This document shows positions 19,837-64,000 of a stretch of 64,000 bases of DNA, in pieces. Position 1 is the stretch's first letter. Each line of letters opens with the position of its first letter. Location of the stretch: the UHGV virus genome UHGV-0218015. One strand, 5' to 3'. Under the pieces are notes generated by a model that was not told the DNA's origin, ran no database searches, and saw only the letters and a program-made list of their open reading frames with translations. Source of the DNA: a virus. The position numbers and the translations under genes were made by a program.

Positions 19837-19875
19837 AGGTACCACCCAACGGTGGTACCTATATTTTATTTTTTC
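19837..19875 (+). terminator. rho-independent terminator
   Basis: aggtaccacc-caac-ggtggtacct then T-rich tail. Confidence 0.75.
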
Positions 19876-19920
19876 TCAGATATATATTACTTAGGTGAGA
19901 GTTACAATTAACTCTTTACA
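19871..19920 (+). promoter_or_regulatory. conserved promoter-like cassette, copy 1
   Basis: ttttctcagatatatattacTtaggtgagagt plus a downstream inverted repeat; ~30 nt near-identical to copies at 38943 and 43316; sits between terminator and SD. Confidence 0.45.
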
Positions 19921-38898: not shown

Positions 38899-38904
38899 TT
38901 TAAA

Positions 38905-38945
38905 CCGTAGGATGGACTTAGTCCATCCTACGGTTTTTATATTTT
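38905..38945 (+). terminator. rho-independent terminator after tailspike gene
   Basis: 13-bp stem ccgtaggatggac / gtccatcctacgg then T-run. Confidence 0.8.
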
Positions 38946-38995
38946 TTCTCAGATATATATTACCTAGGAGAGAGTGAAATTTACGTTCACTCCAT
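38943..38995 (+). promoter_or_regulatory. conserved promoter-like cassette, copy 2
   Basis: ttttctcagatatatattacctaggagagagt plus inverted repeat gagtgaa/ttcactc. Confidence 0.45.
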
Positions 38996-43315: not shown

Positions 43316-43365
43316 ATATTTTCAGATATATATTACCTAGGTGAGAGTTCAGTTACTCTCACTTA
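43316..43365 (+). promoter_or_regulatory. conserved promoter-like cassette, copy 3
   Basis: tttcagatatatattacctaggtgagagt plus inverted repeat gtgagagt/actctcac, then cttaac. Confidence 0.45.
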
Positions 43366-50572: not shown

Positions 50573-51103
50573 ATGGCTAAAACTTTTCAACAGCAGCTTA
50601 TCGAACTTATTAACACTAAAAACAGCTCTCTGAGCTCCGCTCTCACCGTAGCTGATGTTGACTTTAGTGCTGTCGCTGACTTCACCGGAGAAGCTGGCCG
50701 CAACACTAAAATTACTCTGACCGCCAAGGCAGAAAGCCAGAACTTCAAAGGCGAGAAAGAATTCCACTATACTCGTCTTTCCTGCGACATCGTTGGTGAA
50801 GTTGAAGTAACTGCACCTACTACCGATTTCGATTCACCAACGAAAATCCTGGCAAAAGTTAACGCAGCCATGGCTGAGAAAGGGTACACCGATGACGAGT
50901 TCGGTGAAAACGACCTGCAAACTATTTCCCGTGAAGAAGAAGGCAAAACCATTTACGTAGTAACTGTTGTGGCTGGACACCTGAAGTTCCTGCCAGGTAC
51001 TGTTGCAACGTATAAAGTTACTCCTCCGGCTATTGAGAAAGTAGTATTGAACGGTTTGGAAGGTGAACTGGATGGCTTCACCGCACCAGCGCCTAAAGAG
51101 TAA
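50573..51103 (+). CDS. hypothetical protein, four-gene family member
   Basis: AGGTAAAAAACA-ATG; QQQLIELINTKN...; C-terminal GELDGFTA shared with next gene. Confidence 0.5.
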   Translation: MAKTFQQQLIELINTKNSSLSSALTVADVDFSAVADFTGEAGRNTKITLTAKAESQNFKGEKEFHYTRLSCDIVGEVEVTAPTTDFDSPTKILAKVNAAMAEKGYTDDEFGENDLQTISREEEGKTIYVVTVVAGHLKFLPGTVATYKVTPPAIEKVVLNGLEGELDGFTAPAPKE

Positions 51104-51170: not shown

Positions 51171-51701
51171 ATGGCAGCTACTAACCAGATGATGTTAGTT
51201 GCGCTTTATAATGCTGCTAACACAGAGCTACCGCATCAGGTCACTGATAAAGAGGTAACTTTTGGTCAACCTGTCGCTCTTGAAAAGGGCGATAAAAATA
51301 CCAAAGTTACCATGACCGCACGTACAGAGTCTGAAAATTTTAAAGGCGCAATCGAACTGCATTACGATCGTCTGGAACCTGGCGTTATCGGACGCATTGA
51401 GGTAACGGACGATTTGGCTCTCTGGACTGGAGAAAACGAACTACGCGACCGATTACAGTTCTACATCAATAAAGTAAAACCTGACGACTCTATCGCGCCT
51501 GGTGACGTTGAGTACACCACCGAAGACCAGAAAGACGAACACGATAGCGTCACTCTGCGTACGGTAACTTGTACCGTTACTGAAAAGAACCTCCGTTATA
51601 AACCGGGTGTAATGGCAACTTTCGTAATTACGCCGAAAGTTGTTGATAATCGTATTGACCTGGCCACCACCGACGGTGAACTTGACGGCTTTACTGCTTA
51701 A
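51171..51701 (+). CDS. hypothetical protein, four-gene family member
   Basis: Paralog of 50573 (ENFKGA.ELHYDRL, GELDGFTA); bidirectional terminator follows. Confidence 0.5.
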   Translation: MAATNQMMLVALYNAANTELPHQVTDKEVTFGQPVALEKGDKNTKVTMTARTESENFKGAIELHYDRLEPGVIGRIEVTDDLALWTGENELRDRLQFYINKVKPDDSIAPGDVEYTTEDQKDEHDSVTLRTVTCTVTEKNLRYKPGVMATFVITPKVVDNRIDLATTDGELDGFTA

Positions 51702-51780: not shown

Positions 51781-52445
51781 CCCATTTCCAAAGCGTACGC
51801 TCGGATGGTATCATAATCACGCCGCTCGGCTAAAAGCCGAAGCTCTTTTTTCTGCTCGGTTTTCTGCCCATGCAATTTCTGATCACGTTTCACAATCGCT
51901 GCCATCAGTTCTTTGCATTGTTCCAACGTGAACGGTTCTATTCGTGCATTCGACGTATCCAACCAATATTCCGGGGCGGTTTCAGACTGAATATACTGAC
52001 TTAACATCTGTCGCGATGCGTCGTCTGTTTGGAAATAACACCCATTTAACTTAATGGGTGCATAACGCTGTTCCTCATAAAGACGTTCCATCTCTATCAT
52101 GATTTTCTGAACATCTTGATAGATATAACGTGCAGTTGATCGAACGTTGTTTCGTATTTCTTCTAAATCAATCTCAAGAACATCAGCGATAAATTCTTTC
52201 GCTTTCTGTAGAGTGAAATTAGCCTCAATCTCCGACATATCGTAACTACGCATCTGTTCGATTGCGGCCTTATCTTCCAACCCATCGATTAATTTGTAGT
52301 GTAGAAGCGCACAAAAACCCGCACGACCACGATCCTCGTTGCCAATTCGTTCCATGTAATTACCGTGGCGATCGATTGGAAGCCCTCGTGAGAAATAACG
52401 TTGACGTATTTCCTCTTTCGTTAAGCCTTCGTCAATAACAGACAT
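51771..52445 (-). CDS. hypothetical protein
   Basis: Last gene of the minus-strand block. Confidence 0.45.
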   Translation of the reverse strand: MSVIDEGLTKEEIRQRYFSRGLPIDRHGNYMERIGNEDRGRAGFCALLHYKLIDGLEDKAAIEQMRSYDMSEIEANFTLQKAKEFIADVLEIDLEEIRNNVRSTARYIYQDVQKIMIEMERLYEEQRYAPIKLNGCYFQTDDASRQMLSQYIQSETAPEYWLDTSNARIEPFTLEQCKELMAAIVKRDQKLHGQKTEQKKELRLLAERRDYDTIRAYALEMGIK

Positions 52446-52993
52446 TCATCTTCTCCTTTAACTAAACCTAGCTCAATTAACAATTCAAAATCGATTTGGC
52501 GAAATTTGTTATCAAAACCAGAATCCCAATCGATGTGTAATCCTTGTCGTTCTTCATCGGTAAGTTCAGGATAAATTAAATCATGGAACGCTTCACGTTC
52601 CTCGTAAAATCCATCGATAGTAGAATCTGGATTCCGCATTGCGTAAATCGTGATGCCCGGAAAGGATAATCCTAATGCTGTTATAGATTCGACGCTTGGT
52701 TCTTGCAAGGCCCTGCGTAATAGCACGATTTTATGTCGTGGAAAATCTAGTACACGTTGTTCAAACCCAGGATTCCGTTTCTCAATTTCTGTAACTGAAA
52801 GATCGGTGAGTTCTGTGCAATACATTGGGATAACTACAGTTACTCCGTGGCGAATTAATAATCGTTTAACATCGTCAGTGAAGTCTTCACCATTAATTTG
52901 CACATAACAACCAAACAATTTTGTAGTTTCTAAAAATTTTTCCAGAAAACGGAATTTACGCTTCGTAATATTGTGGATCAGAATTGGCTTCAT
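52421..52993 (-). CDS. hypothetical protein
   Basis: ORF overlapping both neighbours. Confidence 0.45.
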   Translation of the reverse strand: MKPILIHNITKRKFRFLEKFLETTKLFGCYVQINGEDFTDDVKRLLIRHGVTVVIPMYCTELTDLSVTEIEKRNPGFEQRVLDFPRHKIVLLRRALQEPSVESITALGLSFPGITIYAMRNPDSTIDGFYEEREAFHDLIYPELTDEERQGLHIDWDSGFDNKFRQIDFELLIELGLVKGEDECLLLTKA

Positions 52994-54278
52994 CTTTGGT
53001 TTCTCTCAATTGTTTTTCTTTCTGGGTACGTTCACGTACGCAACGAGGGCAATAACACATGCTATTGTCATGAAAATCTTTCACTGACGTCGTGCCCATT
53101 TTCTGTTTCCAATATTCCGCAACCATCAACTTTGCAGTTGTCCAGCCGCATTGACGGCGTTCAGCGTGATAAGCTTTGCGATCTTCTAGCGTCCCTTCTC
53201 CATTCTCGTAAGATGCAGCCGCACAACTACCACAAGCGTGCTTCATTGGACAACCTAAACAGGTTTCAGGATAGTTGGTGTATTGCGTCTGAATCTCTTC
53301 CAGCAATTTCCCGTCATCTAAGCTAACGAATTCCCGGCCAACTAATTCAAATACGGCAGAACGTGATGTTACGGTTGACATGAAACGGTTACAACCGAAG
53401 ATCTTACGATCAAATCCTAAGCAGGTCATGTGTGTTAACGTACCGCAGAACGGGCGTAAACGTTCTGGATTCAAACGTACAGTATCGTTATACAATAACT
53501 GATCACGCCAGTTTGGTTCCCAGATAGTATCAAAATCTAACCCGTCTGGAATGATGTGCGACAAAGTGTTACGTGGGTTGGTGTGTAAGCCCTTCTCAAC
53601 CCAATAATCAACCACGTCCATCATCTGCAATGCGATTGAAGTAGCCATGCTCCGTGGCATAATGTCTTCGAAGGTTACGTTGCCAGAAATAGTTCCGCCG
53701 CCAGTAATATCAATTAATGATTTCATTCCAGCAGCATAGAACGGTAACGTTTCCAACGTAAAGGTCGCTTTTACACCAAGTTCTGCAATACCGACTTCTT
53801 TTAAGTAGTTATAGCCCCGCACAGCGGCCTCGTAAGATCCTTCACGAGTTGTTGTAAAAATCCGGTACTTATCGTGCGATTCGGGCAATCCATCAATAGA
53901 CACGCCGATAGAAAGCCTGTCTTTCCAACGTTCAATAATTTCTCTATTCAAAGGTCTATCTAACAACGTTCCGTTAGTAGAGATGCTAAACATAAACGGC
54001 CGATTATGTTTTTCGCATAACTCTTCTGCGGTTTCAAATGCCGCCTTTAATAGTTTAGGCTGCATAAACGGCTCACCACCGATGATATCGATAACGACCT
54101 CGATGTTTGTCAGATCTTTATCTCGTTCAAAACAAGCGTGTAGAAAATCAACAATATCCGCCGCTTTGTTATTACGGGGATACTTACGTTCGTAACAATA
54201 CTCACAGTCCAAGTTACACGATAAATTTGTAACAATTTGATAAGTCAGTTGTTTTGGATAACTATTTTCTTGACTCAT
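52956..54278 (-). CDS. radical SAM enzyme with SPASM-type C-terminal domain (anSME-like peptide maturase candidate)
   Basis: N-terminal CNLDCEYCYE (CxxxCxxC), GGEP; C-terminal Cys clusters CLGCPMKHACGSC and CYCPRC typical of SPASM/twitch domains. Confidence 0.75.
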   Translation of the reverse strand: MSQENSYPKQLTYQIVTNLSCNLDCEYCYERKYPRNNKAADIVDFLHACFERDKDLTNIEVVIDIIGGEPFMQPKLLKAAFETAEELCEKHNRPFMFSISTNGTLLDRPLNREIIERWKDRLSIGVSIDGLPESHDKYRIFTTTREGSYEAAVRGYNYLKEVGIAELGVKATFTLETLPFYAAGMKSLIDITGGGTISGNVTFEDIMPRSMATSIALQMMDVVDYWVEKGLHTNPRNTLSHIIPDGLDFDTIWEPNWRDQLLYNDTVRLNPERLRPFCGTLTHMTCLGFDRKIFGCNRFMSTVTSRSAVFELVGREFVSLDDGKLLEEIQTQYTNYPETCLGCPMKHACGSCAAASYENGEGTLEDRKAYHAERRQCGWTTAKLMVAEYWKQKMGTTSVKDFHDNSMCYCPRCVRERTQKEKQLRETKDEANSDPQYYEA

Positions 54279-55200
54279 TTTCCGCCCCTCTATTACGCTC
54301 TGCCATCACTACACGACGAATGTACTCGTAAGCTTCTACACCTATTGAGGAGGCTAGTTGGTTACACCCTGCTTTTGTAGTTATTGGTACATTTTTAAGT
54401 TGGTTTTCTTCCCCGTCCGCGTCTATCCTGAGACTTTCGCTACAGACATTACAAGCATGATCGAAGAATCTGTTTACAATAAAACCGCAGTCTCTAGAAT
54501 TTAGAACGTTTAATCTTTCTATATTCTCCTGAATTCTAAAATACCCGTAAATAAAGTTCATAACGTGATCGGGAGATAACGGTTTTGGCATGTTTTTATC
54601 TAGTAATAAGGACATGGAACGAAAACCGTAATGATAGATAGCAGTATGTAATTGAATGATATCTTCATGCCATCTTTTGTTGGATAAATTCTCCCTCGTA
54701 ACAACAGCCCAAGTGTTAACATTATTCAAGCTGTAAATTACTTCTAACGCTTCATGACAATTATCATCAATAAAGCGCTTAAAAGGCCGTTCGGAAAGAT
54801 TAAACCCATCGATGCTAACATATATAGCATCGAATTGTTTTAACAACGGTAGATGCGATTTACGCATTTTTAAACCGTTCGTGAACATCTGGTGTTTGAG
54901 TTCAGGACGGATCGTTTTTAATTCGTCGACAAACGCCTCAATCTTTCGAGTTGCCAGTAGCGGTTCACCGCCAGTCCACTGAATTTCAGTAATGGTTGGG
55001 TTAGACGCCAACGCTTTCAAAATTCGTTCACGTTGAAACTCTCGCGGAGAATCTTCACGATGCATGTAATAGGCTCCGCCGCAGAAGCTACAGTCCAGAT
55101 TACATTTGGATGTAGCAACTACGGACAATACGGTGGGTTTATTGTATAAACGATTCGATAACCTTGGCTCTACGTCGGTTGTCATTGCAGGTGAGTCCAT
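54262..55200 (-). CDS. radical SAM enzyme (paralog B)
   Basis: TSKCNLDCSFCGG and GGEPLL; paralog of 57235..58149 with identical DNA blocks. Confidence 0.7.
   Translation of the reverse strand: MDSPAMTTDVEPRLSNRLYNKPTVLSVVATSKCNLDCSFCGGAYYMHREDSPREFQRERILKALASNPTITEIQWTGGEPLLATRKIEAFVDELKTIRPELKHQMFTNGLKMRKSHLPLLKQFDAIYVSIDGFNLSERPFKRFIDDNCHEALEVIYSLNNVNTWAVVTRENLSNKRWHEDIIQLHTAIYHYGFRSMSLLLDKNMPKPLSPDHVMNFIYGYFRIQENIERLNVLNSRDCGFIVNRFFDHACNVCSESLRIDADGEENQLKNVPITTKAGCNQLASSIGVEAYEYIRRVVMAERNRGAENESRK
54514..54597. repeat. 84-bp block identical to 57478..57561
   Basis: Identical string inside radical SAM paralogs B and A; two more shared blocks of ~38 and ~54 bp near 54838/57813 and 55081/58025. 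Confidence 0.7.
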
Positions 55201-55207
55201 CTATTTT

Positions 55208-56095
55208 TTAAATATAGCCAATGGATAACAAAGGATCGTCGTAAGCGTTAACTCCAGGTTTTAATACAAACGGTGAATTGTAAGCCTCAATAATACGATT
55301 AAGGTCTTTATAACGCACGTTTAAACGTTCTAGATCCGCTAACGTTACGTTACGTTCCAATACCGCCGACACTGCCGCTTTTTCTTCATCAGTTAACGTG
55401 ACTTTCGTCATTAAGAAACTAACAAGTTTCGCTAAATCTGCTTCCGATGACGGATGTTCACCAATACGTGTTTGAATTAAATGCTGCATCCATGGTTTAC
55501 GAATACGTTTTGTGATTTCATGTTCATCTGTAAGGGCAACCCATACTGAACGTTCACGATCCCACATAAATTTGTAACTGTACGCCATCAGATCTGCTAA
55601 ACAGTTGATGCCAAGTTCCTCGTAACCTTCTATTTCAATATACGGTTCAGTATCAACATAGTTTTTTGTTTCTACAGGAACCAGGGCATAAAAGTACGGG
55701 AATGAACCAAGATAGTCTGGAGACCACCAACGTCGTGCTACAGGCTTCGCATTCAACTCTTTAAATGGCGTAAAGAACAATTCCAAATCTACAGAATTAT
55801 TCAGAATACCGTCACTAAAGAAATATTTACCGTCAACCAATTTACCGCGTAAATCTGAATCACCGGTAAACACCACTACGCTTTCTGCTGTCAGATCGCG
55901 TATTTTAAAAGTGTTTTCTACTGAATAGTTATTGCGATCGGTAAAAAAACGACCACGCACTTTGGGCCATTCGCCAGGTAACTGGGTTAACAAACGAACT
56001 TTATCTTCCAAATGAGCGCGTATTGAATCGGGGGAAGAAATATGAAGTGGGTGGTTGAAAATTGTTTTATAGGCTAAATGCAAATCGTTTTTCAT
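55208..56095 (-). CDS. hypothetical protein (295 aa)
   Basis: ORF between peptide genes and radical SAM genes. Confidence 0.45.
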   Translation of the reverse strand: MKNDLHLAYKTIFNHPLHISSPDSIRAHLEDKVRLLTQLPGEWPKVRGRFFTDRNNYSVENTFKIRDLTAESVVVFTGDSDLRGKLVDGKYFFSDGILNNSVDLELFFTPFKELNAKPVARRWWSPDYLGSFPYFYALVPVETKNYVDTEPYIEIEGYEELGINCLADLMAYSYKFMWDRERSVWVALTDEHEITKRIRKPWMQHLIQTRIGEHPSSEADLAKLVSFLMTKVTLTDEEKAAVSAVLERNVTLADLERLNVRYKDLNRIIEAYNSPFVLKPGVNAYDDPLLSIGYI

Positions 56096-56107
56096 TGATT
56101 ACTCCAA

Positions 56108-56626
56108 TTATTTTACGGTCAATCTGACGTTCAAGGTATAGAACCCGCCACGCCATTGCCTGCCGGTAACTTCAAATTCTGCAGTAAAGCCGTTTGATTT
56201 ACTCGGTTGCTGCTTAATCGCCATGCTTCCGCCGGAATTACTTAATACTTCTAATGAGATAGAAGCAGAAGATGCATTACCGATAGAGTCTATCTTAAAA
56301 CTAGCCGCGTCTGTAAAATTAACAGTGATACCATTACCCATTGCAACTTGAGGGTAGGCGTAGGACTTTCCAGACAGTAACGATTTAAAGACCCTTATCG
56401 GTTTCTCTCTACCGGTTGACGTTACGCATTGAATAAAGACAGCCCCAGTAGAGAAATTGATACGAACAGTATCTTTAGCGTGTAGCTTAGACTCAACATA
56501 AACAACGGCTTTGTTGTCGTAGGTTGGTCTTGAAGGGGTTGGCGTAGAACCACCGCTAGAGGGCTTACTTACCCCCCCCCGCCCCCTTACTACAGCTACC
56601 GCTGCACGACCAACTACATCCGCCAT
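56108..56626 (-). CDS. beta-rich domain protein, possibly expressed as a fusion to peptide P3
   Basis: Annotated ATG lies inside the P3 coding region; body is +1 relative to P3 across a G9 tract; Pro/Ser/Thr/Gly linker then beta-rich sequence. Confidence 0.4.
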   Translation of the reverse strand: MADVVGRAAVAVVRGRGGVSKPSSGGSTPTPSRPTYDNKAVVYVESKLHAKDTVRINFSTGAVFIQCVTSTGREKPIRVFKSLLSGKSYAYPQVAMGNGITVNFTDAASFKIDSIGNASSASISLEVLSNSGGSMAIKQQPSKSNGFTAEFEVTGRQWRGGFYTLNVRLTVK

Positions 56627-56774
56627 TACAATTATAATGACTTAAAGGTAATCCTGCGAGATTGTTGGTTGAGGAAACCGTTCCTTGGTTTGCAATATAG
56701 TTGTTTGCATTAGCGGTGGTGATATATCCCTCCGCCGTTACTAATCTGTCGCGTATGTTTTTAAGACTTATCAT
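56565..56774 (-). CDS. Cys-rich precursor-like peptide P3 (69 aa)
   Basis: Leader ISLKNIRDRL and core NCNGGCSWSCSGSCS similar to P1/P2; ends in the G9 tract. Confidence 0.55.
   Translation of the reverse strand: MISLKNIRDRLVTAEGYITTANANNYIANQGTVSSTNNLAGLPLSHYNCNGGCSWSCSGSCSKGAGGGK
56572..56580 (-). repeat. G9 homopolymer on the coding strand at the P3 / beta-domain junction
   Basis: Minus-strand reading aag ggg gcg ggg ggg ggt aag taa; a G5 run lies just 5' of it. Confidence 0.7.
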
Positions 56775-56777
56775 TTC

Positions 56778-57176
56778 TTATCTTCCAGTACACGATTGCT
56801 GACATCCGCCTCGACATGAACCTGAACATGTTCCGGTGCAACTACTTGAACAACCGCCCGAGCAATTACCTGTGCACCCTCCTGAGCAGGTACTGCTACA
56901 ACCTGTGCAACCTGTACTACATCCTGAAACACAGTTCGCTGAACAGGAAGAACCGCAGCCGCCGGAGGCGTTGCCGGTACAGCCGCCCGAACAACTTGAG
57001 CACGTCCAGCTACAGCTACCTCCACAGTCATAGTGATTTCTCGGCTGTCCTCCAAACAGATCGCTATTATTAGTGGCTTTACCACGAATATAGTTCTGCA
57101 CCGCACCTGTATTTTTTAATGCAGTAGAGTCTATGTTATCTAGCCGGGCCTTTAAAGAAGATAAACCAATCGCCAT
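56778..57176 (-). CDS. Cys-rich precursor-like peptide P2 (132 aa)
   Basis: Leader LSSLKARLDNIDST; core DCGGSCSWTCS followed by ~20 Cys spaced every 3-4 residues among G/S/T. Confidence 0.6.
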   Translation of the reverse strand: MAIGLSSLKARLDNIDSTALKNTGAVQNYIRGKATNNSDLFGGQPRNHYDCGGSCSWTCSSCSGGCTGNASGGCGSSCSANCVSGCSTGCTGCSSTCSGGCTGNCSGGCSSSCTGTCSGSCRGGCQQSCTGR

Positions 57177-57234
57177 TTTAATACCTACTGGTTTAGTGCC
57201 CCCTAGGACACATTATAATTCACTTTCTGTAAAA

Positions 57235-58149
57235 TTATCGTAGTTTTTCTGAGACTCTATTCTTAGCCCCTACCACACGACGTATATAGTCGTAAGCATC
57301 TAATCCAACCTTTCTGGCCAAGTCACTACAGCCGTGTTGCGTTACGATTTCAACGTTCTTTACTTGGTTCTGGGCACCGTCAGACTCAATGCGAAAACAA
57401 CGACTACATGTGTTACAGGGTTCATCAAATAACGCATTTAGCGTAAACGCACATTCACTTCGATTGGACGAATTCAGTCTTTCTATATTCTCCTGAATTC
57501 TAAAATACCCGTAAATAAAGTTCATAACGTGATCGGGAGATAACGGTTTTGGCATGTTTTTGTCCAAAACCAGCGACATCTCACAAAAACCATAATGGTA
57601 AATGTGGTTATGTAACGCAATTATATCTTCGTACCAACGTTTATCCCCAATACGCTCGCGTGTCAAAACCGCCCAAGTACGAATATTTTTCAATTCGTAA
57701 ATTGTCTCCAAAACCTCGTATTGTTTTTCTTCGATAATCCGCATGAACGGACGCTCTGATTCTTTGAATCCATCCATGCTAAAAAAGATACTATCAAAAC
57801 CCTTTAACAACGGTAGATGCGATTTACGCATTTTTAAACCATTGGTATACAGGTAATGTTCGCAACGAGGATACTTCTCCCTTATCTCTTCTATAAGGGT
57901 ATCAATTTTACGCGTGGCAAGTAATGGTTCGCCCCCTGACCATTGGATATTTGTGATAGTCGGGTTATTTTCCAGCGCCTCGATAATACTTTCCTTTTGT
58001 ACTTCTGCGGTTGTATCCTCTCTATGCATGTAATAGGCTCCGCCGCAGAAGCTACAGTCCAGATTACATTTGGATGTTGTAATCACGTTTAACGTTCTCG
58101 GATTACTGTAAAGCTTATCGGATACCGTCGGTCTAGTAAGTTCTTCCAT
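57235..58149 (-). CDS. radical SAM enzyme (paralog A)
   Basis: TSKCNLDCSFCGG and GGEPLL; C-terminal CNTCSRC. Confidence 0.7.
   Translation of the reverse strand: MEELTRPTVSDKLYSNPRTLNVITTSKCNLDCSFCGGAYYMHREDTTAEVQKESIIEALENNPTITNIQWSGGEPLLATRKIDTLIEEIREKYPRCEHYLYTNGLKMRKSHLPLLKGFDSIFFSMDGFKESERPFMRIIEEKQYEVLETIYELKNIRTWAVLTRERIGDKRWYEDIIALHNHIYHYGFCEMSLVLDKNMPKPLSPDHVMNFIYGYFRIQENIERLNSSNRSECAFTLNALFDEPCNTCSRCFRIESDGAQNQVKNVEIVTQHGCSDLARKVGLDAYDYIRRVVGAKNRVSEKLR
57478..57561. repeat. 84-bp block identical to 54514..54597
   Basis: See partner copy. Confidence 0.7.
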
Positions 58150-58168
58150 TCGAATTGATCCTTATTTT

Positions 58169-58564
58169 TTATGGGTTAGAACAACCACCTGCACAAGAAC
58201 CACTACACCCCGAGGAACAACGTCCAGCACATCCCCCACTACAAGTCCCACTACATCCTGAACAACCACCCGAACACGTTCCGCTACAACCACTGCATTG
58301 ATTACCACACGCAGAGGAACAGCTTCCTACGCACACCGATGTACATGTACCTGAACAACTCGTACAACCATGCGTACAACCGTTTGAGCATGTCCAGCTA
58401 CAGCTACCTCCACAATCTAATCGACCGGGTGTCCAACCTGAAAATGAATCAGCAGCGTTATGTGCTTTCGACGCAACTTGCGGATCAACACGTGGGCCAG
58501 TTGCCATTTGGTTCTCTACGTTGGTGATTCGGTCACGCACATTTTTAACACTGATCGCCATCAC
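58169..58564 (-). CDS. Cys-rich precursor-like peptide P1 (131 aa)
   Basis: Leader ISVKNVRDRITNVEN; core DCGGSCSWTCS plus ~20 Cys in CSG-type repeats. Confidence 0.6.
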   Translation of the reverse strand: MMAISVKNVRDRITNVENQMATGPRVDPQVASKAHNAADSFSGWTPGRLDCGGSCSWTCSNGCTHGCTSCSGTCTSVCVGSCSSACGNQCSGCSGTCSGGCSGCSGTCSGGCAGRCSSGCSGSCAGGCSNP

Positions 58565-58587
58565 GTATCCTTAAAATAAAAAAGAAT

Positions 58588-58612
58588 GGAGGACTACGTC
58601 CATAAACATAGT
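58588..58612 (-). terminator. weak terminator candidate between fibre-like gene and P1
   Basis: Short palindrome ggactacgtcc followed on the minus strand by a T-run, then the P1 SD. Confidence 0.3.
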
Positions 58613-58628
58613 TCCTCCTGTAATTAAA

Positions 58629-59828
58629 TTATTTCGTACCTGCTTCTGCCTGAACGTCATCACGGGACGTCAGGTTAGCGTTAACGTGTACTGAAGCCTG
58701 AACCACACCACCGTATTTCTTGTGGAGATAACCTGTGTGTGGGTTATCTGCCGCAATATGGTTTTGTAGGTTCTGATTCGCCTGACTGATTGCGTTCGTG
58801 TTATTCGCAACCTGTTGTTTAAGCGCATCCAAGTTTTGTTGCAGATTATCAATTTTCTGATCGGTCTCATTACCCCGCTGTTCTAACGCAGCAATGCGCT
58901 GAATCGCTTGGTTGAGTTTGGTGTTCAGATCGTTGATATTTTTCTGTAACTGTAACACTAACGAGTTTAGGTTCGCCAGCGCCAGTGCCATTTTCTGATA
59001 GTTTTGTGCAACGACGTTAAGTTGGTCGTTCCACGCTTCCAGAGATTTGACAACAGCATCAATACGTTTTCCTAACGCTTCGTCCGCTTTCTTCAATGCA
59101 TTGATATCGGCAATCGTTGCATCAATGGCTGTCTGAACACTGCGAATTAAAGCGCGGATCTCCGTTTCCGTTAACCCGTTAACCTGATGAATATCCAGAT
59201 GGTGGACATTACCAGTAGAGTTAATGTGCGCGTTCAGCGCGTCCAGGAAATCGTTTTTCAGGCTATCGAGAATCGCTTTGATGTTCTCAAGCTGTACAGC
59301 ATCACCCGCAGTTATCGCATCTTTAATGCCAGCGAGCACTGTAATGATATATTCGAAGCCGTAAATATCACCGACGTCTTTATACGTTGGTGCTGAAGGA
59401 AACGTGTCCGGCACATTTCGCAAGTCTTTAAAGCCAACAGTTCGATTATCGAGTTTCAACTCGGCAATCGCTTGCTCAATCGCGGTCACATTTGCAGACT
59501 GAGGACCACCAACTACTTGCGCCGATACCGTGATATCGGTCGGAATCGCGGTGTTCGTTACAACAACCGCCATTACCACTTCCCGGTTCTTCGTCAATTT
59601 CTCATAAGCCGGGTGTGCAAAAATCAGTTCATAGTCCGTTCCACGCTCATATGTCGCTCCAGGTCGATTGGCAACCCGCAAGCGGAACGTATCGGCATAA
59701 AACGGACCATCAGGGAAAGCAAACGCACGGTTAACTTTGCCTGTACCTAACGTAATCTGACGCTCCACGGCGTTAGAGGTTAGGGTTCCCGTTAAATCTA
59801 AAGGGTATTGGTATACAATGGAGGCCAT
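58629..59828 (-). CDS. coiled-coil fibrous protein (tail fibre/whisker-like)
   Basis: ATG at 59828 after AAGGAGAG (track start 59954 lies inside upstream gene); long heptad-like Q/N/L-rich central region. Confidence 0.5.
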   Translation of the reverse strand: MASIVYQYPLDLTGTLTSNAVERQITLGTGKVNRAFAFPDGPFYADTFRLRVANRPGATYERGTDYELIFAHPAYEKLTKNREVVMAVVVTNTAIPTDITVSAQVVGGPQSANVTAIEQAIAELKLDNRTVGFKDLRNVPDTFPSAPTYKDVGDIYGFEYIITVLAGIKDAITAGDAVQLENIKAILDSLKNDFLDALNAHINSTGNVHHLDIHQVNGLTETEIRALIRSVQTAIDATIADINALKKADEALGKRIDAVVKSLEAWNDQLNVVAQNYQKMALALANLNSLVLQLQKNINDLNTKLNQAIQRIAALEQRGNETDQKIDNLQQNLDALKQQVANNTNAISQANQNLQNHIAADNPHTGYLHKKYGGVVQASVHVNANLTSRDDVQAEAGTK

Positions 59829-59868
59829 GGCCACTCTCCTTAATCCGAGACGTCCTTGTCTCGTGGCG

Positions 59869-62800
59869 TTAAGATGTAAACATAAGATTGAACTGGAGTT
59901 TATCGATATCGCGAGTTTGTGCTGGGTTAACCGCATCGTACGTGGTTGCCACATAGACCGTTAACGTGCCGTCAGAATACGCGGTTTTCACCGGTGGTGT
60001 AGTCCCTGTCTGTCCATCAGTTACAATGACGACAGGTTGAGCCGGGAGTTGACGAAACTGACTCTTAACCGCTTTATAGACCAAACCAGATTGTGCCGCT
60101 TGCTCTGTGGCGGTGTACACGATAAACGGTGTGTCGATATCTGTCTGTTTAATGACAGTGTTCGTCTCAACGTCAATCAGCTGAACAGCACCAAATTTGG
60201 TCCGGTAACTATCGTATTCATTTTTTGGAATGACAAACGTAGCATGAAGGCGGACTTCGGCGGCTGGCTTAAATCCCGCGTGTTCTTTTTCCAGGTAACT
60301 GTTAGCAGTTAGCGTTACTGTCTGTTCAGTCATCGTACCGCCAGACTGATTTAGCCCGTAACGAACTTGAGTTATACCTGTCGGGGCCGCAAGCCTGATT
60401 TTCAGTCTACGATTAGCAGTACCAGGATCGCCAGGTACTTTAACACGCAGACTCAATGCCAGATATGCATACTCGCCAGTAGTCGGTTTCGTATACGCGC
60501 CCAACCACTTCATGTTCGCGGTTGCTGCTTGTTTGTTCTCAGAAGCAGTAGCCGCTGCAACGTTCGCAGCAACCGCTTTCTGCCAGAACTGGTCAGCGCA
60601 GTTCTCATACGCCACCCTGCTGATACTTTTATAACCTGAATAGGTTTCCTGTACCGGCAACCTGGAACGTGTTGTAATCCCGGACAACGTATTCCATTTC
60701 TGACCATCGACATACCCAGCACCCTTGCTCGCAGATGCTGTAACGACTTTAACGGGTTTATTAACCAGCGTTAATAGTGGGCCAGTTTTCCTGTCGAATG
60801 CCTGCGCCACATCGTGTTGATCAACAATCGATGCATGATTTTCCAGCTCTTTTACGCGACCTAACCGTTTTACTTTATCGATACTGATATCCGTAATACG
60901 GTTCGAATCAGTGGTTACAGTCCCAACAAACAGTCTCGACGAGGTATCAGCTAACTGCTCTAAACCGATGCGGTATTGGGCAGTAGAACCGACCACTTCA
61001 GCATAAACGTAGAACGTCTGGTTAGCATGATTAGTCGGGAATTCATCGCTTAAATCAACGGACCATCTTGGAACGGTATATCTTTTATTTCCAAAACTTA
61101 ACTCGGTTTCCTCCGTCAGATAGAAATTCCAACCGCTCTGTGTTTGTACGCCGCCAATAATAATCTTATCGATAACAGTATATTTTTTGTTAAACAAATC
61201 AGAGATTCTATACTGTTCGCCACCGAGATACAACTCGTTTAAATCTTCCGAGTTACAAGTCAATAGCGCGATGCCCGAGAGATCGGGTATATAGACTTCA
61301 GATGTATTATTCAGCTTATACGTATAGCCCCACGCCCGATGAATTTCGCCGGTAAACCATTCGCCTTTTTTAGTCAAGTTTATCCCAAAAGCAAAAGAAA
61401 TCTCTGATCCTACAAGATTCCCACCAACCAGGTTATGTATTGAGAATCTGAACTTTTGTCCGTCTTGCGAATAAAGGAAAACTTGACCGGAGCGTTGTTT
61501 AAGTTCACCATTAAAAGCTGTGGGTGAGAGATTAATGGCGTTACTGGCCACTTTTTCCCTGAACGTCATCATTCTCGCTTCCGAACTAACGAACCTTATG
61601 ACCCCGTTGGTTATAGTCGGTTTTACCTGAAAGAAGTAAAAAGCAAACTTATTTACCCCGTCAGTGTCTTTATAGATAAGACTCACTATCGCGATACAAA
61701 GCGGACCACCAGACATCGTTTGACCAAGCACCCAAAAGGACAAACTGTAGTTGTTCTTTTTGGTCTTAGCTACGCTAATCCGCTCATAGGCGTTGCCGTT
61801 AGATGCCCCGGAGAACTGGCTGGACTGAACAATATTAGTCAGCTTCGCCCATTCTGCCGCATCGATAGACAACCGATCACTACCCACCGTAGTGGTACCG
61901 TAAACAACTGTACACGGTTTACTTTCGGCACCGATAAAATAAGCCCCTTCTAGTAGGCCGTTCGGTATTTCTGGCGTAACAACCAGCGGTATATTTGTCA
62001 ATATGCCGTATTCGTTCGCTGTTTTTTCAACACGGCGGGATGTTGGTCCAAAACCACCGTATCCAGGATAACCATAGGTCGTATTTTTATCATATTCGGC
62101 TTCAATGAAATAAGCCGATTTTTGATGTTTAAGCCATACTTTGTTTGTTCCTGGGAAGAACAATGGGAAGGTCATAGACGGTTTCCACACCGAACCCACC
62201 ACAGGGTTTATCCGATTTTCAAACGTAGATTGCCCCTCATACCCCACACTCAACTTAACATAGTCCAGATAACTAACTCCTTCTGGGAGTTTCTGGTAAT
62301 GGAGAGATGGTGCGAGTTGTTTTTCTGTCGAACAGCAGCAAGAATAAACCATATCACCGACACAGATTCTATTGTCGGCCATATAGCCAGAACTTCGAGT
62401 AGCCCATTTCCATTTCAGCTCTATTTTTGTTCCGTCTTTTAAGTAACAACCTGTAGTATCGATTTTGATTGGGAAGACGTTAGTTGTCTCTAACCCAACC
62501 TCCCCGGTTAATAGGTCAAGACGATAAGCACCATTCCATGGCCCGAATGTGGTACCTTTCGTTGAAGAAAAACCAAGACAAACACCAGACACGCCGACGG
62601 TTAACAAGTGACCGTCCTTAACAACGGGCGTTATCCATCTTGACGACCCTCTAGTTAATTGTAAGTTCACTGTCCACAACGCTTTGCCTTCCGCAGTGAA
62701 GTAGGCAAGACGCTTCGTATTCGGATTATCTACATCGAACGCGCCAGGTTCAACCAAATCGGCACACTTACCGATTTTTCGTGTAGACCTTAAATCAACC

Positions 62801-64000
62801 TGTTCAAACCGATCGGTTTTATTAAGCCGCAATAAGCCAACACGGAACATGGGTTGTGGGGTATCCTTAATGTAGTCCACCAGAGTATTGTTTTTCAGAT
62901 CGGCCATTAGCATCGTACGCAAAACATAGACGCCGTTATCGGCTATGACCACACGATCCATGAACATATTCGGCACAAATTCCCATGTTGTTTCTGAAAC
63001 AAATTCTGAGAAAGTTACCAACCTGACATCGGTATGTTTGGTGTAATCCATTGAACCGTTCAGTTTAACTAAATAATAATTATTGTCGCTGCCCTTCGCT
63101 ATAAATGCTTCGGTACCAGTAACGGTAATTTCTTTTAGTTCCACCCCCGGATAATTCGTCTCTAACCCTTTCGGCTTATAACGGAAAGTTGTTTTGTAAA
63201 TTTCACCGAGACTTTTGTCGTTTTTTAACCCAGCAACAGCGTAATAAATACCCTCAGTTCCCGGAAGGGCGGATTTAGAGCTAATTAAAGCATAAAGCTT
63301 ACCTTGTTGTACCCCTATAACCATCTGGAGCGCATCCATGTTTTTACCATAACCTTCGTAATTACCCATCGACAAGATCGGCAATATCGAATTGTTGGTA
63401 TATTTGCTCCCGGCCGTTGTCCATGAGGGCAAGAGGGTATTCAGTTTATCAGAGACCTTCTTAATCTCTTTTGCGAACAGCCACCCTTGGCGTGATGTGA
63501 CGGCTTTATCATTCGTGGTATCAATCGCATCCCACAGCTGTAAGATACCGTCCACTGTTGCGCTACCAATCGGGACATTATCCAAATCAGCGGTAGTGTG
63601 CGTGTGTACCTTCAAACTTTTATTTTTCAGCACGTTCGCTAATGCTTTTGTTACCGGTTTAGCGATGGGTGTGGTGTTATTCATCTTATCGATACCGAAA
63701 TCGGCCTTCGTTAAGGTTAACACCATGTTGTCGCCTGTCTTAACAAACCCTTTACCGTTAACCGTGTAGTCGTCGTCAACGTACAAGTCCAACCGGTTTT
63801 TTAACTCGGTCACAGCCTTTTGGGAAATAGCAGTGCCTAGCGCTACAGAGGTTGCGATATTCGTAATCGAAAACACCCCATAAACCGACTCGGTTGCTGT
63901 GGGAATATTCGCGTTCAACGTTAGTGGGTTAGACTGCTTCGCTGTACCGTACGGTTTTACGGTATCTGACGATTTGAAATAGGCATTCGCTTCAAGTAAC
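59869..64000 (-). CDS. very large structural-like protein, 5'-partial
   Basis: Minus-strand ORF; frame stays open from the track TTG at 63918 to the window edge, so the N-terminus is probably outside the window. Confidence 0.55.
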   Translation of the reverse strand, partial: LLEANAYFKSSDTVKPYGTAKQSNPLTLNANIPTATESVYGVFSITNIATSVALGTAISQKAVTELKNRLDLYVDDDYTVNGKGFVKTGDNMVLTLTKADFGIDKMNNTTPIAKPVTKALANVLKNKSLKVHTHTTADLDNVPIGSATVDGILQLWDAIDTTNDKAVTSRQGWLFAKEIKKVSDKLNTLLPSWTTAGSKYTNNSILPILSMGNYEGYGKNMDALQMVIGVQQGKLYALISSKSALPGTEGIYYAVAGLKNDKSLGEIYKTTFRYKPKGLETNYPGVELKEITVTGTEAFIAKGSDNNYYLVKLNGSMDYTKHTDVRLVTFSEFVSETTWEFVPNMFMDRVVIADNGVYVLRTMLMADLKNNTLVDYIKDTPQPMFRVGLLRLNKTDRFEQVDLRSTRKIGKCADLVEPGAFDVDNPNTKRLAYFTAEGKALWTVNLQLTRGSSRWITPVVKDGHLLTVGVSGVCLGFSSTKGTTFGPWNGAYRLDLLTGEVGLETTNVFPIKIDTTGCYLKDGTKIELKWKWATRSSGYMADNRICVGDMVYSCCCSTEKQLAPSLHYQKLPEGVSYLDYVKLSVGYEGQSTFENRINPVVGSVWKPSMTFPLFFPGTNKVWLKHQKSAYFIEAEYDKNTTYGYPGYGGFGPTSRRVEKTANEYGILTNIPLVVTPEIPNGLLEGAYFIGAESKPCTVVYGTTTVGSDRLSIDAAEWAKLTNIVQSSQFSGASNGNAYERISVAKTKKNNYSLSFWVLGQTMSGGPLCIAIVSLIYKDTDGVNKFAFYFFQVKPTITNGVIRFVSSEARMMTFREKVASNAINLSPTAFNGELKQRSGQVFLYSQDGQKFRFSIHNLVGGNLVGSEISFAFGINLTKKGEWFTGEIHRAWGYTYKLNNTSEVYIPDLSGIALLTCNSEDLNELYLGGEQYRISDLFNKKYTVIDKIIIGGVQTQSGWNFYLTEETELSFGNKRYTVPRWSVDLSDEFPTNHANQTFYVYAEVVGSTAQYRIGLEQLADTSSRLFVGTVTTDSNRITDISIDKVKRLGRVKELENHASIVDQHDVAQAFDRKTGPLLTLVNKPVKVVTASASKGAGYVDGQKWNTLSGITTRSRLPVQETYSGYKSISRVAYENCADQFWQKAVAANVAAATASENKQAATANMKWLGAYTKPTTGEYAYLALSLRVKVPGDPGTANRRLKIRLAAPTGITQVRYGLNQSGGTMTEQTVTLTANSYLEKEHAGFKPAAEVRLHATFVIPKNEYDSYRTKFGAVQLIDVETNTVIKQTDIDTPFIVYTATEQAAQSGLVYKAVKSQFRQLPAQPVVIVTDGQTGTTPPVKTAYSDGTLTVYVATTYDAVNPAQTRDIDKLQFNLMFTS

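What the first reader, a model, noticed from the sequence alone, without database searches (positions are those of the whole stretch)
54514..57561. Identical DNA blocks in the two radical-SAM paralogs
Radical SAM A (57235-58149) and B (54262-55200) share at least three blocks that are identical at the nucleotide level (84, ~38 and ~54 bp), including third codon positions, while the rest of the genes has diverged. This suggests recent duplication or ongoing gene conversion. The direct repeats, ~3 kb apart, could also mediate deletion of the intervening peptide and accessory genes.
Basis: seen in the sequence. Interest (0 to 1): 0.4.

Follow-up and report, generated by a model that had tools for sequence, protein, structure and literature searches.

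The report
Gene-conversion islands in phage radical-SAM paralogs
Two old, highly diverged copies of a radical-SAM enzyme gene in a jumbo phage share three short, perfectly identical DNA stretches, because one copy keeps overwriting the other there; this is a clear but ordinary case of gene conversion between neighbouring paralogs.

Summary
Three in-register direct repeats of 84, 54 and 38 bp, all offset by 2,964 bp, link rSAM-A (57235-58149, minus strand) and rSAM-B (54262-55200, minus strand). They are by far the longest exact repeats in the 64-kb window. Outside them the genes share 57% nt and 52% aa identity, synonymous sites are saturated (pS 0.84), and the longest exact run is 8 nt.

The blocks are not conserved at the nucleotide level in single-copy orthologues (SPN3US and relatives, L019). 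In a second two-copy phage clade (L017/L018/L028) the same three regions are again identical between that genome's own A and B. That clade has lineage-specific substitutions shared by both copies and tract ends shifted by a few bases. At the tract edges B alternates between the B-type and the A-type state, while A stays constant.

This indicates recurrent short-tract gene conversion from A to B, confined to three motif-coding islands. "Recent duplication" is rejected.

Seven contigs carry chimeric genes with junctions exactly at the blocks, including the predicted 2,964-bp deletion. All are short, apparently low-coverage assemblies (inferred from length and N-gaps), and those traced are composites of alleles seen intact elsewhere. 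Real recombinants cannot be separated from assembly artefacts without reads.

This is a known kind of process in a new place.

The parts
57478..57561 (-). Block 3, copy in rSAM-A (84 bp). It encodes KNMPKPLSPDHVMNFIYGYFRIQENIER.
   Evidence: Exact match to 54514-54597. In the AF2 model it covers the loop after strand 190-195 and most of helix 205-229.
54514..54597 (-). Block 3, copy in rSAM-B (84 bp), inferred to be the recipient of the A-type sequence.
   Evidence: B here carries the A-type residues F-R-I-Q-E, where the single-copy orthologues have Y-Q-V-Q-D (L019) or W-K-I-L-D (SPN3US). The block is 95 bp in strain L027 and is shifted by 6 bp in L017/L018/L028.
58024..58077 (-). Block 1, copy in rSAM-A (54 bp). 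It encodes TSKCNLDCSFCGGAYYMH, which includes the CX3CX2C radical-SAM cluster motif.
55060..55113 (-). Block 1, copy in rSAM-B (54 bp).
   Evidence: The block is 60 bp in the L017 clade, 51 bp in L027, and 41 bp in L011, where B alone carries a new SNP.
57803..57840 (-). Block 2, copy in rSAM-A (38 bp). It encodes GLKMRKSHLPLLK.
54839..54876 (-). Block 2, copy in rSAM-B (38 bp).
   Evidence: The block is 47 bp in the L017 clade, 41 bp in L012 and 23 bp in L038.
57235..58149 (-). rSAM-A, the 304-aa radical-SAM paralogue and inferred conversion donor. It is a clean presence/absence of about 992 bp (57180-58171) relative to the single-copy relative L019.
   Evidence: PF04055 52.6 bits. The indel is shown. 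Only two clades carry A. Between those clades dN/dS is 0.06 and the gene body is 91-95% identical while its flanks are 69-85%.
54262..55200 (-). rSAM-B, the 312-aa radical-SAM paralogue (307 aa if translation starts at 55185). It is the positional orthologue of SPN3US 'radical SAM protein 2' and the inferred conversion recipient.
   Evidence: PF04055 50 bits. Synteny with SPN3US gp102 and other phages is shown. dN/dS is 0.07.
55208..57176 (-). Genes between the two paralogues, which a block-to-block deletion would remove together with the adjoining parts of A and B. They are the 295-aa accessory protein (55208-56095, phrog_8030), the 172-aa ORF (56108-56626), the short Cys-motif peptide pep69 (56565-56774) and the CXXX-repeat peptide pep132 (56778-57176).
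58169..58564 (-). CXXX-repeat Cys-rich peptide pep131, upstream of rSAM-A.
   Evidence: TIGR04114 20.1 bits and phrog_6085. It shares a 23-nt exact run with pep132 (58392-58414 = 57004-57026).
52956..54278 (-). rSAM1, a 440-aa radical-SAM peptide-maturase-like enzyme immediately downstream of rSAM-B. It forms the downstream flank of the predicted deletion product.
   Evidence: The best NCBIfam hit is TIGR04115, the CXXX-repeat target maturase, at 118.9 bits against a cut-off of 350.

Best explanation
The three identical blocks are islands of concerted evolution. They are maintained by recurrent, short-tract, non-reciprocal homologous recombination (ectopic gene conversion) between two tandem, same-strand paralogues, and the inferred direction is rSAM-A to rSAM-B. 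The two genes are old paralogues. rSAM-B is the ancestral, syntenic copy present in all SPN3US-like jumbo phages. rSAM-A is an extra single-gene insertion found in only two related clades.

Shown: identity is perfect in the blocks and saturated outside them. The blocks co-evolve within each genome. Tract ends differ between lineages and even between near-identical strains. B's blocks share A's history.

Inferred: conversion started in the three stretches that encode the most conserved enzyme motifs (the CX3CX2C cluster loop and two further barrel loop/helix segments). Only there do a naive A-type and B-type gene share 17-24-nt exact runs, which is about the minimum that homologous pairing needs. 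Each event lengthens the exact match, so later events become more likely and the island sustains itself. Flanks at about 57% identity, with a mismatch roughly every third base, stop heteroduplex extension. Selection for the diverged functions of A and B probably removes longer tracts.

As a by-product, the blocks are in-frame direct repeats that can support a 2,964-bp deletion, the reciprocal duplication or circle, and mosaic genes.
For: (1) The exact blocks are far beyond chance.

(2) Single-copy orthologues do not conserve the block nucleotides. SPN3US, SPAsTU, Ea29, Ea43, Caitlin and Asesino differ at many third positions inside the blocks. For L019 against window B, pS is 0.67 inside the blocks and 0.56 outside.

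(3) A second two-copy clade (L017, L018, L028; A 91% nt and B 76% nt identical to the window) has the same three regions exactly identical between its own A and B, at 60, 47 and 84 bp.

(4) In the 167-nt core common to both clades, 6 sites differ between genomes while A equals B inside every genome. L017 and L018, whose B genes are 98% identical, differ at four block-2-region sites: 2 of those 6 core sites and 2 in the 5' extension. Both paralogues change together each time.

(5) At tract edges B alternates between the state shared with L019/SPN3US and the A state, while A is constant (alignment sites 82, 85, 139, 604-606, 609). B orthologues have pS 0.28 inside the blocks against 0.73 outside. 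That matches A orthologues (0.18 inside, 0.42 outside), so B's blocks carry A's history.

(6) Near-identical strains differ in block length: L011 41 bp, L012 41 bp, L027 51/38/95 bp, L038 23 bp. Some differences are fresh single-copy SNPs, as expected under a balance of mutation and conversion.

(7) The longest exact runs between A and the naive single-copy gene L019 are 20 and 24 nt, and they lie in blocks 1 and 2.

(8) Both paralogues are under purifying selection, with dN/dS 0.06-0.07.

(9) The tandem DUF7941 paralogues in the same window have no such islands.
Against: No experiment or read-level data show an event in progress. The A-to-B direction rests on outgroup reasoning from only two two-copy clades. 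How a first conversion could be seeded by matches of only 17-24 nt is inferred, not shown. The alternative origin, in which the islands are relics of a once fully identical tandem duplicate kept by continuous conversion, is not excluded, because A's phylogenetic position is unresolved (distances). I did not examine which recombination machinery, phage or host, is responsible. The relative roles of homology limitation and selection in bounding the tracts cannot be separated here.
Confidence: 0.82

Rival explanations
1. The blocks are recombination sites kept by selection. They allow in-frame shuffling of N-terminal, core and C-terminal enzyme segments between A and B. They also allow loss or gain of the 3-kb peptide/accessory cassette, giving population-level heterogeneity. 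This would work like the conserved-motif-mediated shuffling of T-even adhesins or the S. aureus lpl cluster. It builds on gene conversion rather than replacing it.
For: Seven contigs from seven samples and at least two studies carry full-length chimeric ORFs whose junctions lie exactly at blocks. Five have A(N)-block 3-B(C) with the predicted deletion architecture pep131-chimera-rSAM1 (L020, L023-L026). One has B(N)-block 3-A(C) flanked by the accessory gene and pep132 (L022). One is an A-B-A mosaic that switches at blocks 1 and 3 (L021). The deletion junction occurs on at least three strain backgrounds. Published analogues exist (PMC2568036; PMC3157838).
Against: All chimeric contigs are 1.4-8.4 kb, and L023 contains four 10-N gaps. 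All ten ≥223-kb ENA contigs read, plus the long contigs L018, L027, L028 and L038, show the intact arrangement. L020 is an exact composite of the A and B alleles of the intact strain L038 from the same study. The A sides of L024 and L025 are identical to intact genomes in the set. A repeat-induced loop in a de Bruijn graph yields exactly these 'deletion' and 'circle-junction' paths at low coverage. The deletion would remove the accessory gene, which is conserved in every related phage. Single-copy SNPs in the blocks argue against strict selection for identity.
Confidence: 0.1
2. A recent tandem duplication was followed by rapid divergence everywhere except in three constrained stretches, with no ongoing conversion.
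For: The genes are tandem, co-oriented paralogues, and the blocks encode the most conserved motifs.
Against: Synonymous sites outside the blocks are saturated (pS 0.84; 35% codon identity at conserved residues), as between phage genera. Other segments that are equally conserved at the protein level, for example NPTIT.IQW.GGEPLLATRKI, differ at nearly every third position. Protein constraint cannot fix synonymous sites. Co-substitutions occur in both copies, and tract ends vary. A is a clean single-gene indel rather than a duplicated segment.
Confidence: 0.03
3. The blocks are functional nucleic-acid elements, such as an RNA structure, a regulatory or protein-binding site, or a target of a shared antisense RNA. 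Under this view identity is kept by selection on the nucleotide sequence itself.
For: Identity is perfect, including third codon positions, and is retained in two clades.
Against: Single-copy orthologues vary freely at synonymous sites in the blocks. There is no Rfam match at E<=1 in 52000-60000. Folding energies of the three blocks do not differ from shuffles, with z-scores of +1.4, -0.8 and -1.5. Block sequences differ between clades while A equals B within each genome. Single-copy SNPs are tolerated.
Confidence: 0.03
4. The identity is an assembly artefact, in which paralogous variants were collapsed by the assembler.
For: The window's relatives come from short-read metagenome assemblies, and repeats do disturb these assemblies, as the chimeric short contigs show.
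Against: The same blocks appear in many independent assemblies. These include ENA contigs of about 225 kb from more than 10 samples, MEGAHIT-style k141 contigs in which 84 bp is shorter than k, JGI/IMG-VR contigs, GenBank WGS records, and a protein set deposited under Shigella flexneri. A diverged clade shows blocks with its own substitutions and different ends.
Confidence: 0.02

Closest known systems
Interlocus (ectopic) gene conversion and concerted evolution of bacterial paralogues. Examples are tufA/tufB and the rRNA operons (my own knowledge) and the survey of long-lasting concerted evolution in prokaryotes (PMC6053082).
   Same: Paralogues within one genome are more alike than orthologues over defined segments. 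Transfer is non-reciprocal and homology-dependent. Both copies are functional.
   Different: Here conversion does not cover the gene. It is confined to three islands of 38-95 bp in genes that are otherwise saturated (57% nt identity). The donor appears to be consistently the accessory copy (A). The setting is a lytic jumbo phage rather than a cellular chromosome.
The S. aureus lpl tandem paralogue cluster, in which a conserved central nucleotide sequence inside each ORF serves as a recombination site (Tsuru & Kobayashi 2008, PMC2568036).
   Same: Tandem paralogues carry a highly conserved internal nucleotide stretch flanked by diverged regions. Recombination at that stretch gives chimeric ORFs and changes in copy number. 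The exchanged unit runs from the 3' part of one ORF through the intergenic genes to the 5' part of the next ORF, exactly as in the predicted 2,964-bp unit here.
   Different: In lpl the rearrangements are documented in finished genomes. Here chimeras are seen only in short metagenomic contigs and remain unverified. There are three islands rather than one central region, and two copies rather than a large array.
Conserved-motif-mediated recombinational shuffling in the T-even tail-fibre/adhesin genes (gp37/gp38 glycine-rich motifs and His boxes). Source: Trojet et al. 2011, PMC3157838, citing Tetart et al. 1996 and 1998.
   Same: [quoted passage not shown]
   Different: Those exchanges are mostly between different phages and alter receptor specificity. 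Here the exchange is between two paralogues of an enzyme in one genome, and its demonstrated outcome is homogenisation rather than new specificity.
CXXX-repeat peptide / radical-SAM maturase systems (NCBIfam TIGR04114 and TIGR04115) and thioether-forming RiPP maturases (CteB, SuiB, anSME folds).
   Same: This describes the context of the genes. The Cys-rich CXXX-repeat peptides reach the TIGR04114 cut-off. rSAM1's best hit is TIGR04115. The rSAM-A model's best structural matches are SuiB, CteB and anSME.
   Different: rSAM1 scores far below the equivalog cut-off (118.9 against 350). A and B are short (about 305 aa) and reach no NCBIfam cut-off. The locus sits in a virion tail-fibre module. No chemistry has been shown.

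Membership tests
Interlocus gene conversion / concerted evolution | A segment in which paralogues within a genome are more similar to each other than to their orthologues, while the flanking segments show the opposite. | tested here: met
   Inside the blocks A equals B in every genome, yet genomes differ at 6 of the 167 core sites. Outside the blocks B groups with B orthologues (76-79% nt) and A with A orthologues (91%), against 57% between A and B.
Interlocus gene conversion / concerted evolution | The tracts are statistically longer than expected given the background divergence (a GENECONV-type criterion). | tested here: met
   54/54 synonymous-capable codons are identical against a background of 0.35. 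In the simulation the maximum run was 16 codons in 200,000 trials, against observed runs of 28, 18 and 12.
Interlocus gene conversion / concerted evolution | Transfer is non-reciprocal, with an identifiable donor and recipient. | tested here: met
   By outgroup comparison, at the tract edges B switches between the L019/SPN3US state and the A state while A stays constant. B's blocks show A-like orthologue divergence. This is inference from two clades, not direct observation.
Interlocus gene conversion / concerted evolution | Events are recurrent or ongoing rather than a single ancient event. | tested here: met
   Tract ends differ between the window clade and the L017 clade and among 99-100% identical strains. 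L017 and L018 differ at block-2 sites in both copies.
Direct-repeat-mediated deletion or duplication (unequal homologous recombination) | Direct repeats in the same orientation that are long enough for homologous recombination, and whose products are in frame. | tested here: met
   The 84, 54 and 38-bp repeats are on the same strand, have the same offset of 2,964 bp (a multiple of 3) and are in register in the codon alignment.
Direct-repeat-mediated deletion or duplication (unequal homologous recombination) | Recombinant molecules are observed in nature. | tested here: inconclusive
   Seven short contigs have junctions exactly at the blocks. All appear to be low-coverage assemblies. L020 is an exact composite of intact strain L038 from the same study, and the A sides of L024 and L025 are identical to intact genomes. 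No long contig carries a chimera.
Radical SAM superfamily (for genes A and B) | A CX3CX2C cluster motif and a Pfam PF04055 score above the gathering threshold. | tested here: met
   C28-X3-C32-X2-C35 is invariant in 19 homologues. PF04055 scores 52.6 and 50.0 bits against a cut-off of 29.5.
CXXX-repeat peptide radical-SAM maturase system (TIGR04115 / TIGR04114) | The maturase reaches the TIGR04115 equivalog cut-off, and the target peptide reaches the TIGR04114 cut-off. | tested here: not met
   rSAM1 scores 118.9 bits against a cut-off of 350. A and B do not list this family among their best hits. The peptides score 22.3 and 20.1 bits against a cut-off of 20, so they pass. The locus resembles this system, but the enzymes cannot be filed as members.
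Functional RNA element | A match to a curated RNA family, or unusually stable or conserved structure. | tested here: not met
   No Rfam hit at E<=1. Folding z-scores are +1.4, -0.8 and -1.5.

The most novel reading that the evidence does not exclude
The three identity islands are not just a by-product. They act as built-in, in-frame crossover points that let the phage population continually produce (i) chimeric radical-SAM maturases with swapped N-terminal, core and C-terminal segments and (ii) genomes that have lost or duplicated the 3-kb cassette holding the accessory protein and Cys-rich peptides. This would be a homologous-recombination switch that varies tail-fibre-associated peptide modification. 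The seven chimeric contigs would then be real variants.
Probability: 0.1. Interest if true: 0.6.

Novelty: new member of a known kind. Interest (0 to 1): 0.35.

Why it matters
The locus shows, at base-pair resolution and with natural replicates, how gene conversion can persist for a long time in islands of a few dozen bases inside paralogues that are otherwise saturated. It also shows that the accessory copy can overwrite catalytic-motif segments of the ancestral copy, amino-acid changes included. That matters for how phage paralogues diverge or fail to diverge. There are two practical consequences. First, exact 54-95-bp repeats 3 kb apart are a likely source of chimeric contigs and chimeric "proteins" in metagenome catalogues; three such clusters are present in the large protein collection. 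Second, phylogenies or selection scans of these rSAM genes will be misled unless the blocks are masked. The surrounding system (CXXX-repeat peptides with three radical-SAM enzymes in the tail-fibre module of SPN3US-like jumbo phages) looks unstudied and is arguably the more interesting biology.

Tried and rejected
1. Nucleotide-level constraint common to the family. Rejected because six reference phages and L019 vary at third positions in the blocks.

2. An RNA element. Rejected by the Rfam and folding controls.

3. Avoidance of homology outside the blocks. A-B runs outside the blocks (maximum 8-11 nt) are similar to those between A and orthologues in other genomes, so there is no signal.

4. 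Strain differences in B pointing toward A's state outside the blocks (11 of 19 in L027). I judged this uninformative, because about 57-60% is expected from background identity. Only the cluster at the block-3 edge (positions 588, 673, 675, 678) is suggestive, and L019 also has that state.

5. A search for closed or annotated genomes of this phage. Megablast found only two weak matches (72-75% identity, covering only the rSAM1 end) in 50,697 phage records, and nothing in the E. coli complete genomes, the plasmids or the GTDB representative genomes. IMG/VR added only L017-L019.

6. An attempt to decide whether the chimeric contigs are real, using strain SNPs. They lie on at least three backgrounds, each closely matched by an intact genome in my set (L038 from the same study as L020). 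This fits both artefact and recurrent events, so it remains undecided.

7. Placement of A in the family tree. Four-point sums (1.00, 1.01, 1.04) do not resolve whether A is an accelerated duplicate of B or an older lineage.

8. Literature. Only one paper in the library mentions SPN3US together with radical SAM, and only in passing.

Full report
**What the window is**

ORF listing and database searches show that the region belongs to a jumbo myovirus of about 225 kb related to Salmonella phage SPN3US (Seoulvirus and related genera). It is distant from every deposited phage: at most 75% nt identity over a fifth of the query by megablast, and about 67-68% where longer stretches align in the sensitive search.

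Near-identical genomes occur as contigs of about 225 kb in many human-associated metagenome assemblies. Identical proteins are deposited under Shigella flexneri.

The gene order, all on the minus strand, is:
- tail fibre (59869-63918)
- virion structural protein (58629-59954)
- Cys-rich CXXX-repeat peptide pep131 (58169-58564)
- rSAM-A (57235-58149)
- CXXX-repeat peptide pep132 (56778-57176)
- short peptide pep69 (56565-56774)
- a 172-aa ORF (56108-56626)
- a 295-aa accessory protein (55208-56095)
- rSAM-B (54262-55200)
- a 440-aa SPASM-type rSAM1 (52956-54278)
- a 190-aa protein, then a DUF4376 protein

SPN3US, SPAsTU, pEa_SNUABM_29 and _43, Caitlin and Asesino share this order but each has a single "radical SAM 2" gene, in the position of rSAM-B.

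**The observation**

A codon-based alignment of A and B and an exhaustive exact-repeat scan of the window give three maximal exact matches:
- 84 bp: 54514-54597 = 57478-57561
- 54 bp: 55060-55113 = 58024-58077
- 38 bp: 54839-54876 = 57803-57840

All three share an offset of 2,964 bp and are in frame. They are the three longest exact repeats in the 64-kb window; the next longest is 24 bp and is unrelated.

Between A and B the run-length distribution is bimodal: 84, 54 and 38 nt, then nothing longer than 8 nt. Outside the blocks, identity is 57% nt and 52% aa. Only 35% of codons at conserved amino acids are identical, the same as between phages of different genera. Inside the blocks all 54 informative codons are identical. 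The Nei-Gojobori pS outside the blocks is 0.84, which is saturated.

A simulation that preserves the amino-acid conservation pattern never produced a run longer than 16 identical codons in 200,000 trials. The observed runs are 28, 18 and 12 codons.

**Not protein constraint and not a nucleotide-level element**

Other stretches that are just as conserved at the protein level (NPTIT.IQW.GGEPLLATRKI) differ at almost every third position. In the single-copy orthologues of six reference phages and of the metagenomic relative L019, the block regions carry ordinary synonymous variation. Between window B and L019, pS is 0.67 inside the blocks and 0.56 outside. There is no Rfam match in 52000-60000, and none of the three blocks folds better than shuffled controls.

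The identity is also not an assembly collapse. It recurs in independent ENA, JGI and GenBank assemblies, including contigs built with k=141, which is longer than 84 bp.

**Concerted evolution**

A second two-copy clade provides a natural replicate. It comprises the IMG/VR contigs L017 and L018 and the WGS contig L028. Its A gene is 91% nt identical to the window's and its B gene 76%. In each of these genomes the same three regions are again exactly identical between that genome's own A and B, at 60, 47 and 84 (83) bp.

Within the 167-nt core shared by all block sets, six sites differ between genomes while A equals B inside every genome. One is a non-synonymous Ser/Thr change in block 2. L017 and L018, whose B genes are 98% identical, differ at four sites in the block-2 region: two of the six core sites and two in the 5' extension. 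At every one of them both paralogues of a genome agree.

Tract ends also differ between clades. Block 1 extends 9 nt further 5' in the L017 clade and 3 nt further 3' in the window. Block 3 is shifted by 6 nt.

Among strains that are 99-100% identical to the window, block lengths also vary. Block 1 is 41 bp in L011, because of a new SNP in B only. Block 2 is 41 bp in L012. The three blocks are 51, 38 and 95 bp in L027. Block 2 is 23 bp in L038. This is the expected picture for a balance between point mutation and recurrent conversion, not for a frozen relic.

**Direction**

At the edge sites B alternates between the state shared with the single-copy genes (L019, SPN3US) and the A state, while A is the same in all genomes. 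The sites are:
- alignment sites 82 and 85, converted in the L017 clade
- site 139, converted in the window
- sites 604-606 and 609, converted in the window

Block 3 of B encodes the A-type residues F-R-I-Q-E, where single-copy genes have Y-Q-V-Q-D or W-K-I-L-D. Between the two clades, B's blocks have pS 0.28 although the rest of B has 0.73. A has 0.18 inside and 0.42 outside. B's blocks therefore share A's history, and I infer that A is the donor and B the recipient.

**History of the two genes**

A is a clean presence/absence of about 992 bp (57180-58171) relative to L019, where the two long peptide genes abut. A occurs only in the window clade and the L017 clade. A search of 5.8 billion proteins found no A-like sequence elsewhere; all other relatives are B-like at 63% identity or less.

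The body of A is 91-95% identical between the clades while its flanks are 69-85%. A has therefore been exchanged between the lineages more recently than its surroundings. Outside the blocks B is closer to SPN3US (59% aa) than to A (52%).

Whether A is an accelerated duplicate of B or an older lineage is unresolved. Both genes are under purifying selection, with dN/dS of 0.06-0.07. "Recent duplication" is therefore rejected.

**Why only these three places (inference)**

Between A and a naive single-copy B-type gene (L019), the longest exact runs are 20 nt and 24 nt and lie in blocks 1 and 2; the longest in block 3 is 17 nt. That is roughly the minimal length at which homologous pairing becomes efficient in bacteria and phages (my own knowledge of MEPS estimates).

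The blocks encode the CX3CX2C cluster loop and two further strand-end loop/helix segments of the barrel in the AlphaFold model (pLDDT 80). Once a patch has been copied, the exact match grows to 40-95 nt and further events become much more likely. Flanks with a mismatch about every third base stop heteroduplex extension. Longer replacements would probably be selected against because A and B have diverged (dN 0.43).

The tandem DUF7941 paralogues elsewhere in the window have no such islands. The phenomenon is therefore specific to this pair, with a possible 23-nt echo in the two long peptide genes.

**Deletion and chimeras**

Searching the large protein collection with A returned three clusters of chimeric enzymes whose junctions lie exactly at the blocks:
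- P0002 and P0044 are A up to block 3 followed by the B C-terminus.
- P0004 is the reciprocal.
- P0003 is A-B-A, with switches at blocks 1 and 3.

Their contigs show the predicted architectures:
- pep131-chimera-rSAM1, which is the 2,964-bp deletion: L020, L023, L024, L025, L026
- accessory-chimera-pep132, which is a circle or duplication junction: L022
- pep131-mosaic-pep132: L021

All seven contigs, however, are 1.4-8.4 kb, and L023 contains four 10-N gaps. All ten ≥223-kb ENA contigs read, and the long contigs L018, L027, L028 and L038, have the intact arrangement.

L020 is an exact composite of the A and B alleles of intact strain L038 from the same study. The deletion junction sits on at least three strain backgrounds, each closely matched by an intact genome in my set.

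A repeat of 54-95 bp creates a loop in a de Bruijn graph, and its shortcut and loop paths are exactly these junctions. SPIRE-type assemblies, whose study_sample naming these contigs appear to follow, use MEGAHIT with default k values (PMC10767986). I could not establish the assembler of the scaffolded records.

I estimate roughly a one-in-three chance that at least some of these contigs are real recombinants. Only reads or PCR can decide.

**Comparison with what is known**

The process is ordinary interlocus gene conversion and concerted evolution. Prokaryotic examples are surveyed in PMC6053082.

The closest structural analogue is the S. aureus lpl tandem cluster. There a conserved nucleotide stretch inside each ORF serves as the recombination site, and the exchanged unit spans the 3' part of one ORF to the 5' part of the next (PMC2568036). 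In phages, T-even adhesin genes exchange segments at their most conserved motifs (PMC3157838).

What is unusual here is the small size and sharpness of the islands against a saturated background, the replicated A-to-B directionality, and the jumbo-phage setting.

The gene context resembles CXXX-repeat peptide / radical-SAM maturase systems. The peptides pass TIGR04114. rSAM1's best hit is TIGR04115 but falls far below the cut-off. The model of A is closest to SuiB, CteB and anSME. The enzymes cannot be filed as members of these families.

**Verdict**

This is a new member of a known kind and of moderate interest.

Noticed in passing
window 56572-56580 (poly-C on the + strand; poly-G on the coding minus strand), at the 3' end of pep69 (56565-56774): The homopolymer length differs among otherwise near-identical strains. 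It is G9 in the window, L009, L011, L014, L015 and L027; G10 in L008, L010, L012, L013 and L038; G11 in L016; and G4AG5 in L007. With G11 (or G8) pep69 fuses in frame to the body of the 172-aa ORF, giving a 222-aa protein with a leader, a Cys motif, a Pro/Ser linker and a C-terminal domain. This could be phase variation, transcriptional slippage or Illumina homopolymer noise.
   Followed up: partly
window 52421-59954, and loci L001-L006: A conserved and apparently unstudied module sits between the tail-fibre genes and a DUF4376 gene in all SPN3US-like jumbo phages examined. It holds CXXX-repeat Cys-rich peptides (phrog_6085; TIGR04114 at the cut-off), a SPASM-type rSAM (best hit TIGR04115, sub-threshold), a short rSAM, and proteins of phrog_8030 and phrog_7988. 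Only one paper in the library mentions SPN3US together with radical SAM.
   Followed up: partly
window 57180-58171: rSAM-A is a clean single-gene presence/absence relative to the single-copy relative L019. Its body is 91-95% identical between two clades whose flanking genes are 69-85% identical. This suggests recent horizontal exchange of this one gene.
   Followed up: partly
window 57004-57026 and 58392-58414: A 23-nt exact repeat lies in the two long Cys-rich peptide genes and encodes CGGSCSWT. It may be a further small conversion island, but it is only weakly significant on its own.
   Followed up: partly
window 56102-56590: The body of the 172-aa ORF is absent from the L017/L018 clade, and 56237-56548 is absent from L019. 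This is a lineage-specific insertion next to the poly-G tract.
   Followed up: no
window 19867-19890, 38940-38968 and 43322-43341; also 38902-38936: An exact 24-nt motif, TATTTTTTCTCAGATATATATTAC, occurs twice. An overlapping 20-nt motif, TCAGATATATATTACCTAGG, occurs at a third site. A perfect 17-nt inverted repeat lies just upstream of one copy. These are candidate phage promoter or terminator signals.
   Followed up: no
protein clusters P0002/P0044, P0003 and P0004 (contigs L020-L026): Chimeric rSAM 'proteins' with junctions at the exact repeats are present as separate clusters in the large protein collection. If they are assembly artefacts, exact repeats of 54-95 bp in tandem paralogues are a source of spurious sequences in metagenome catalogues.
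   Followed up: yes
window 50573-51103 and 51171-51701: The tandem DUF7941 paralogues, both 176 aa, share no exact repeat of 16 nt or more. They serve as an internal negative control, showing that conversion islands are not general to paralogue pairs in this genome.
   Followed up: partly
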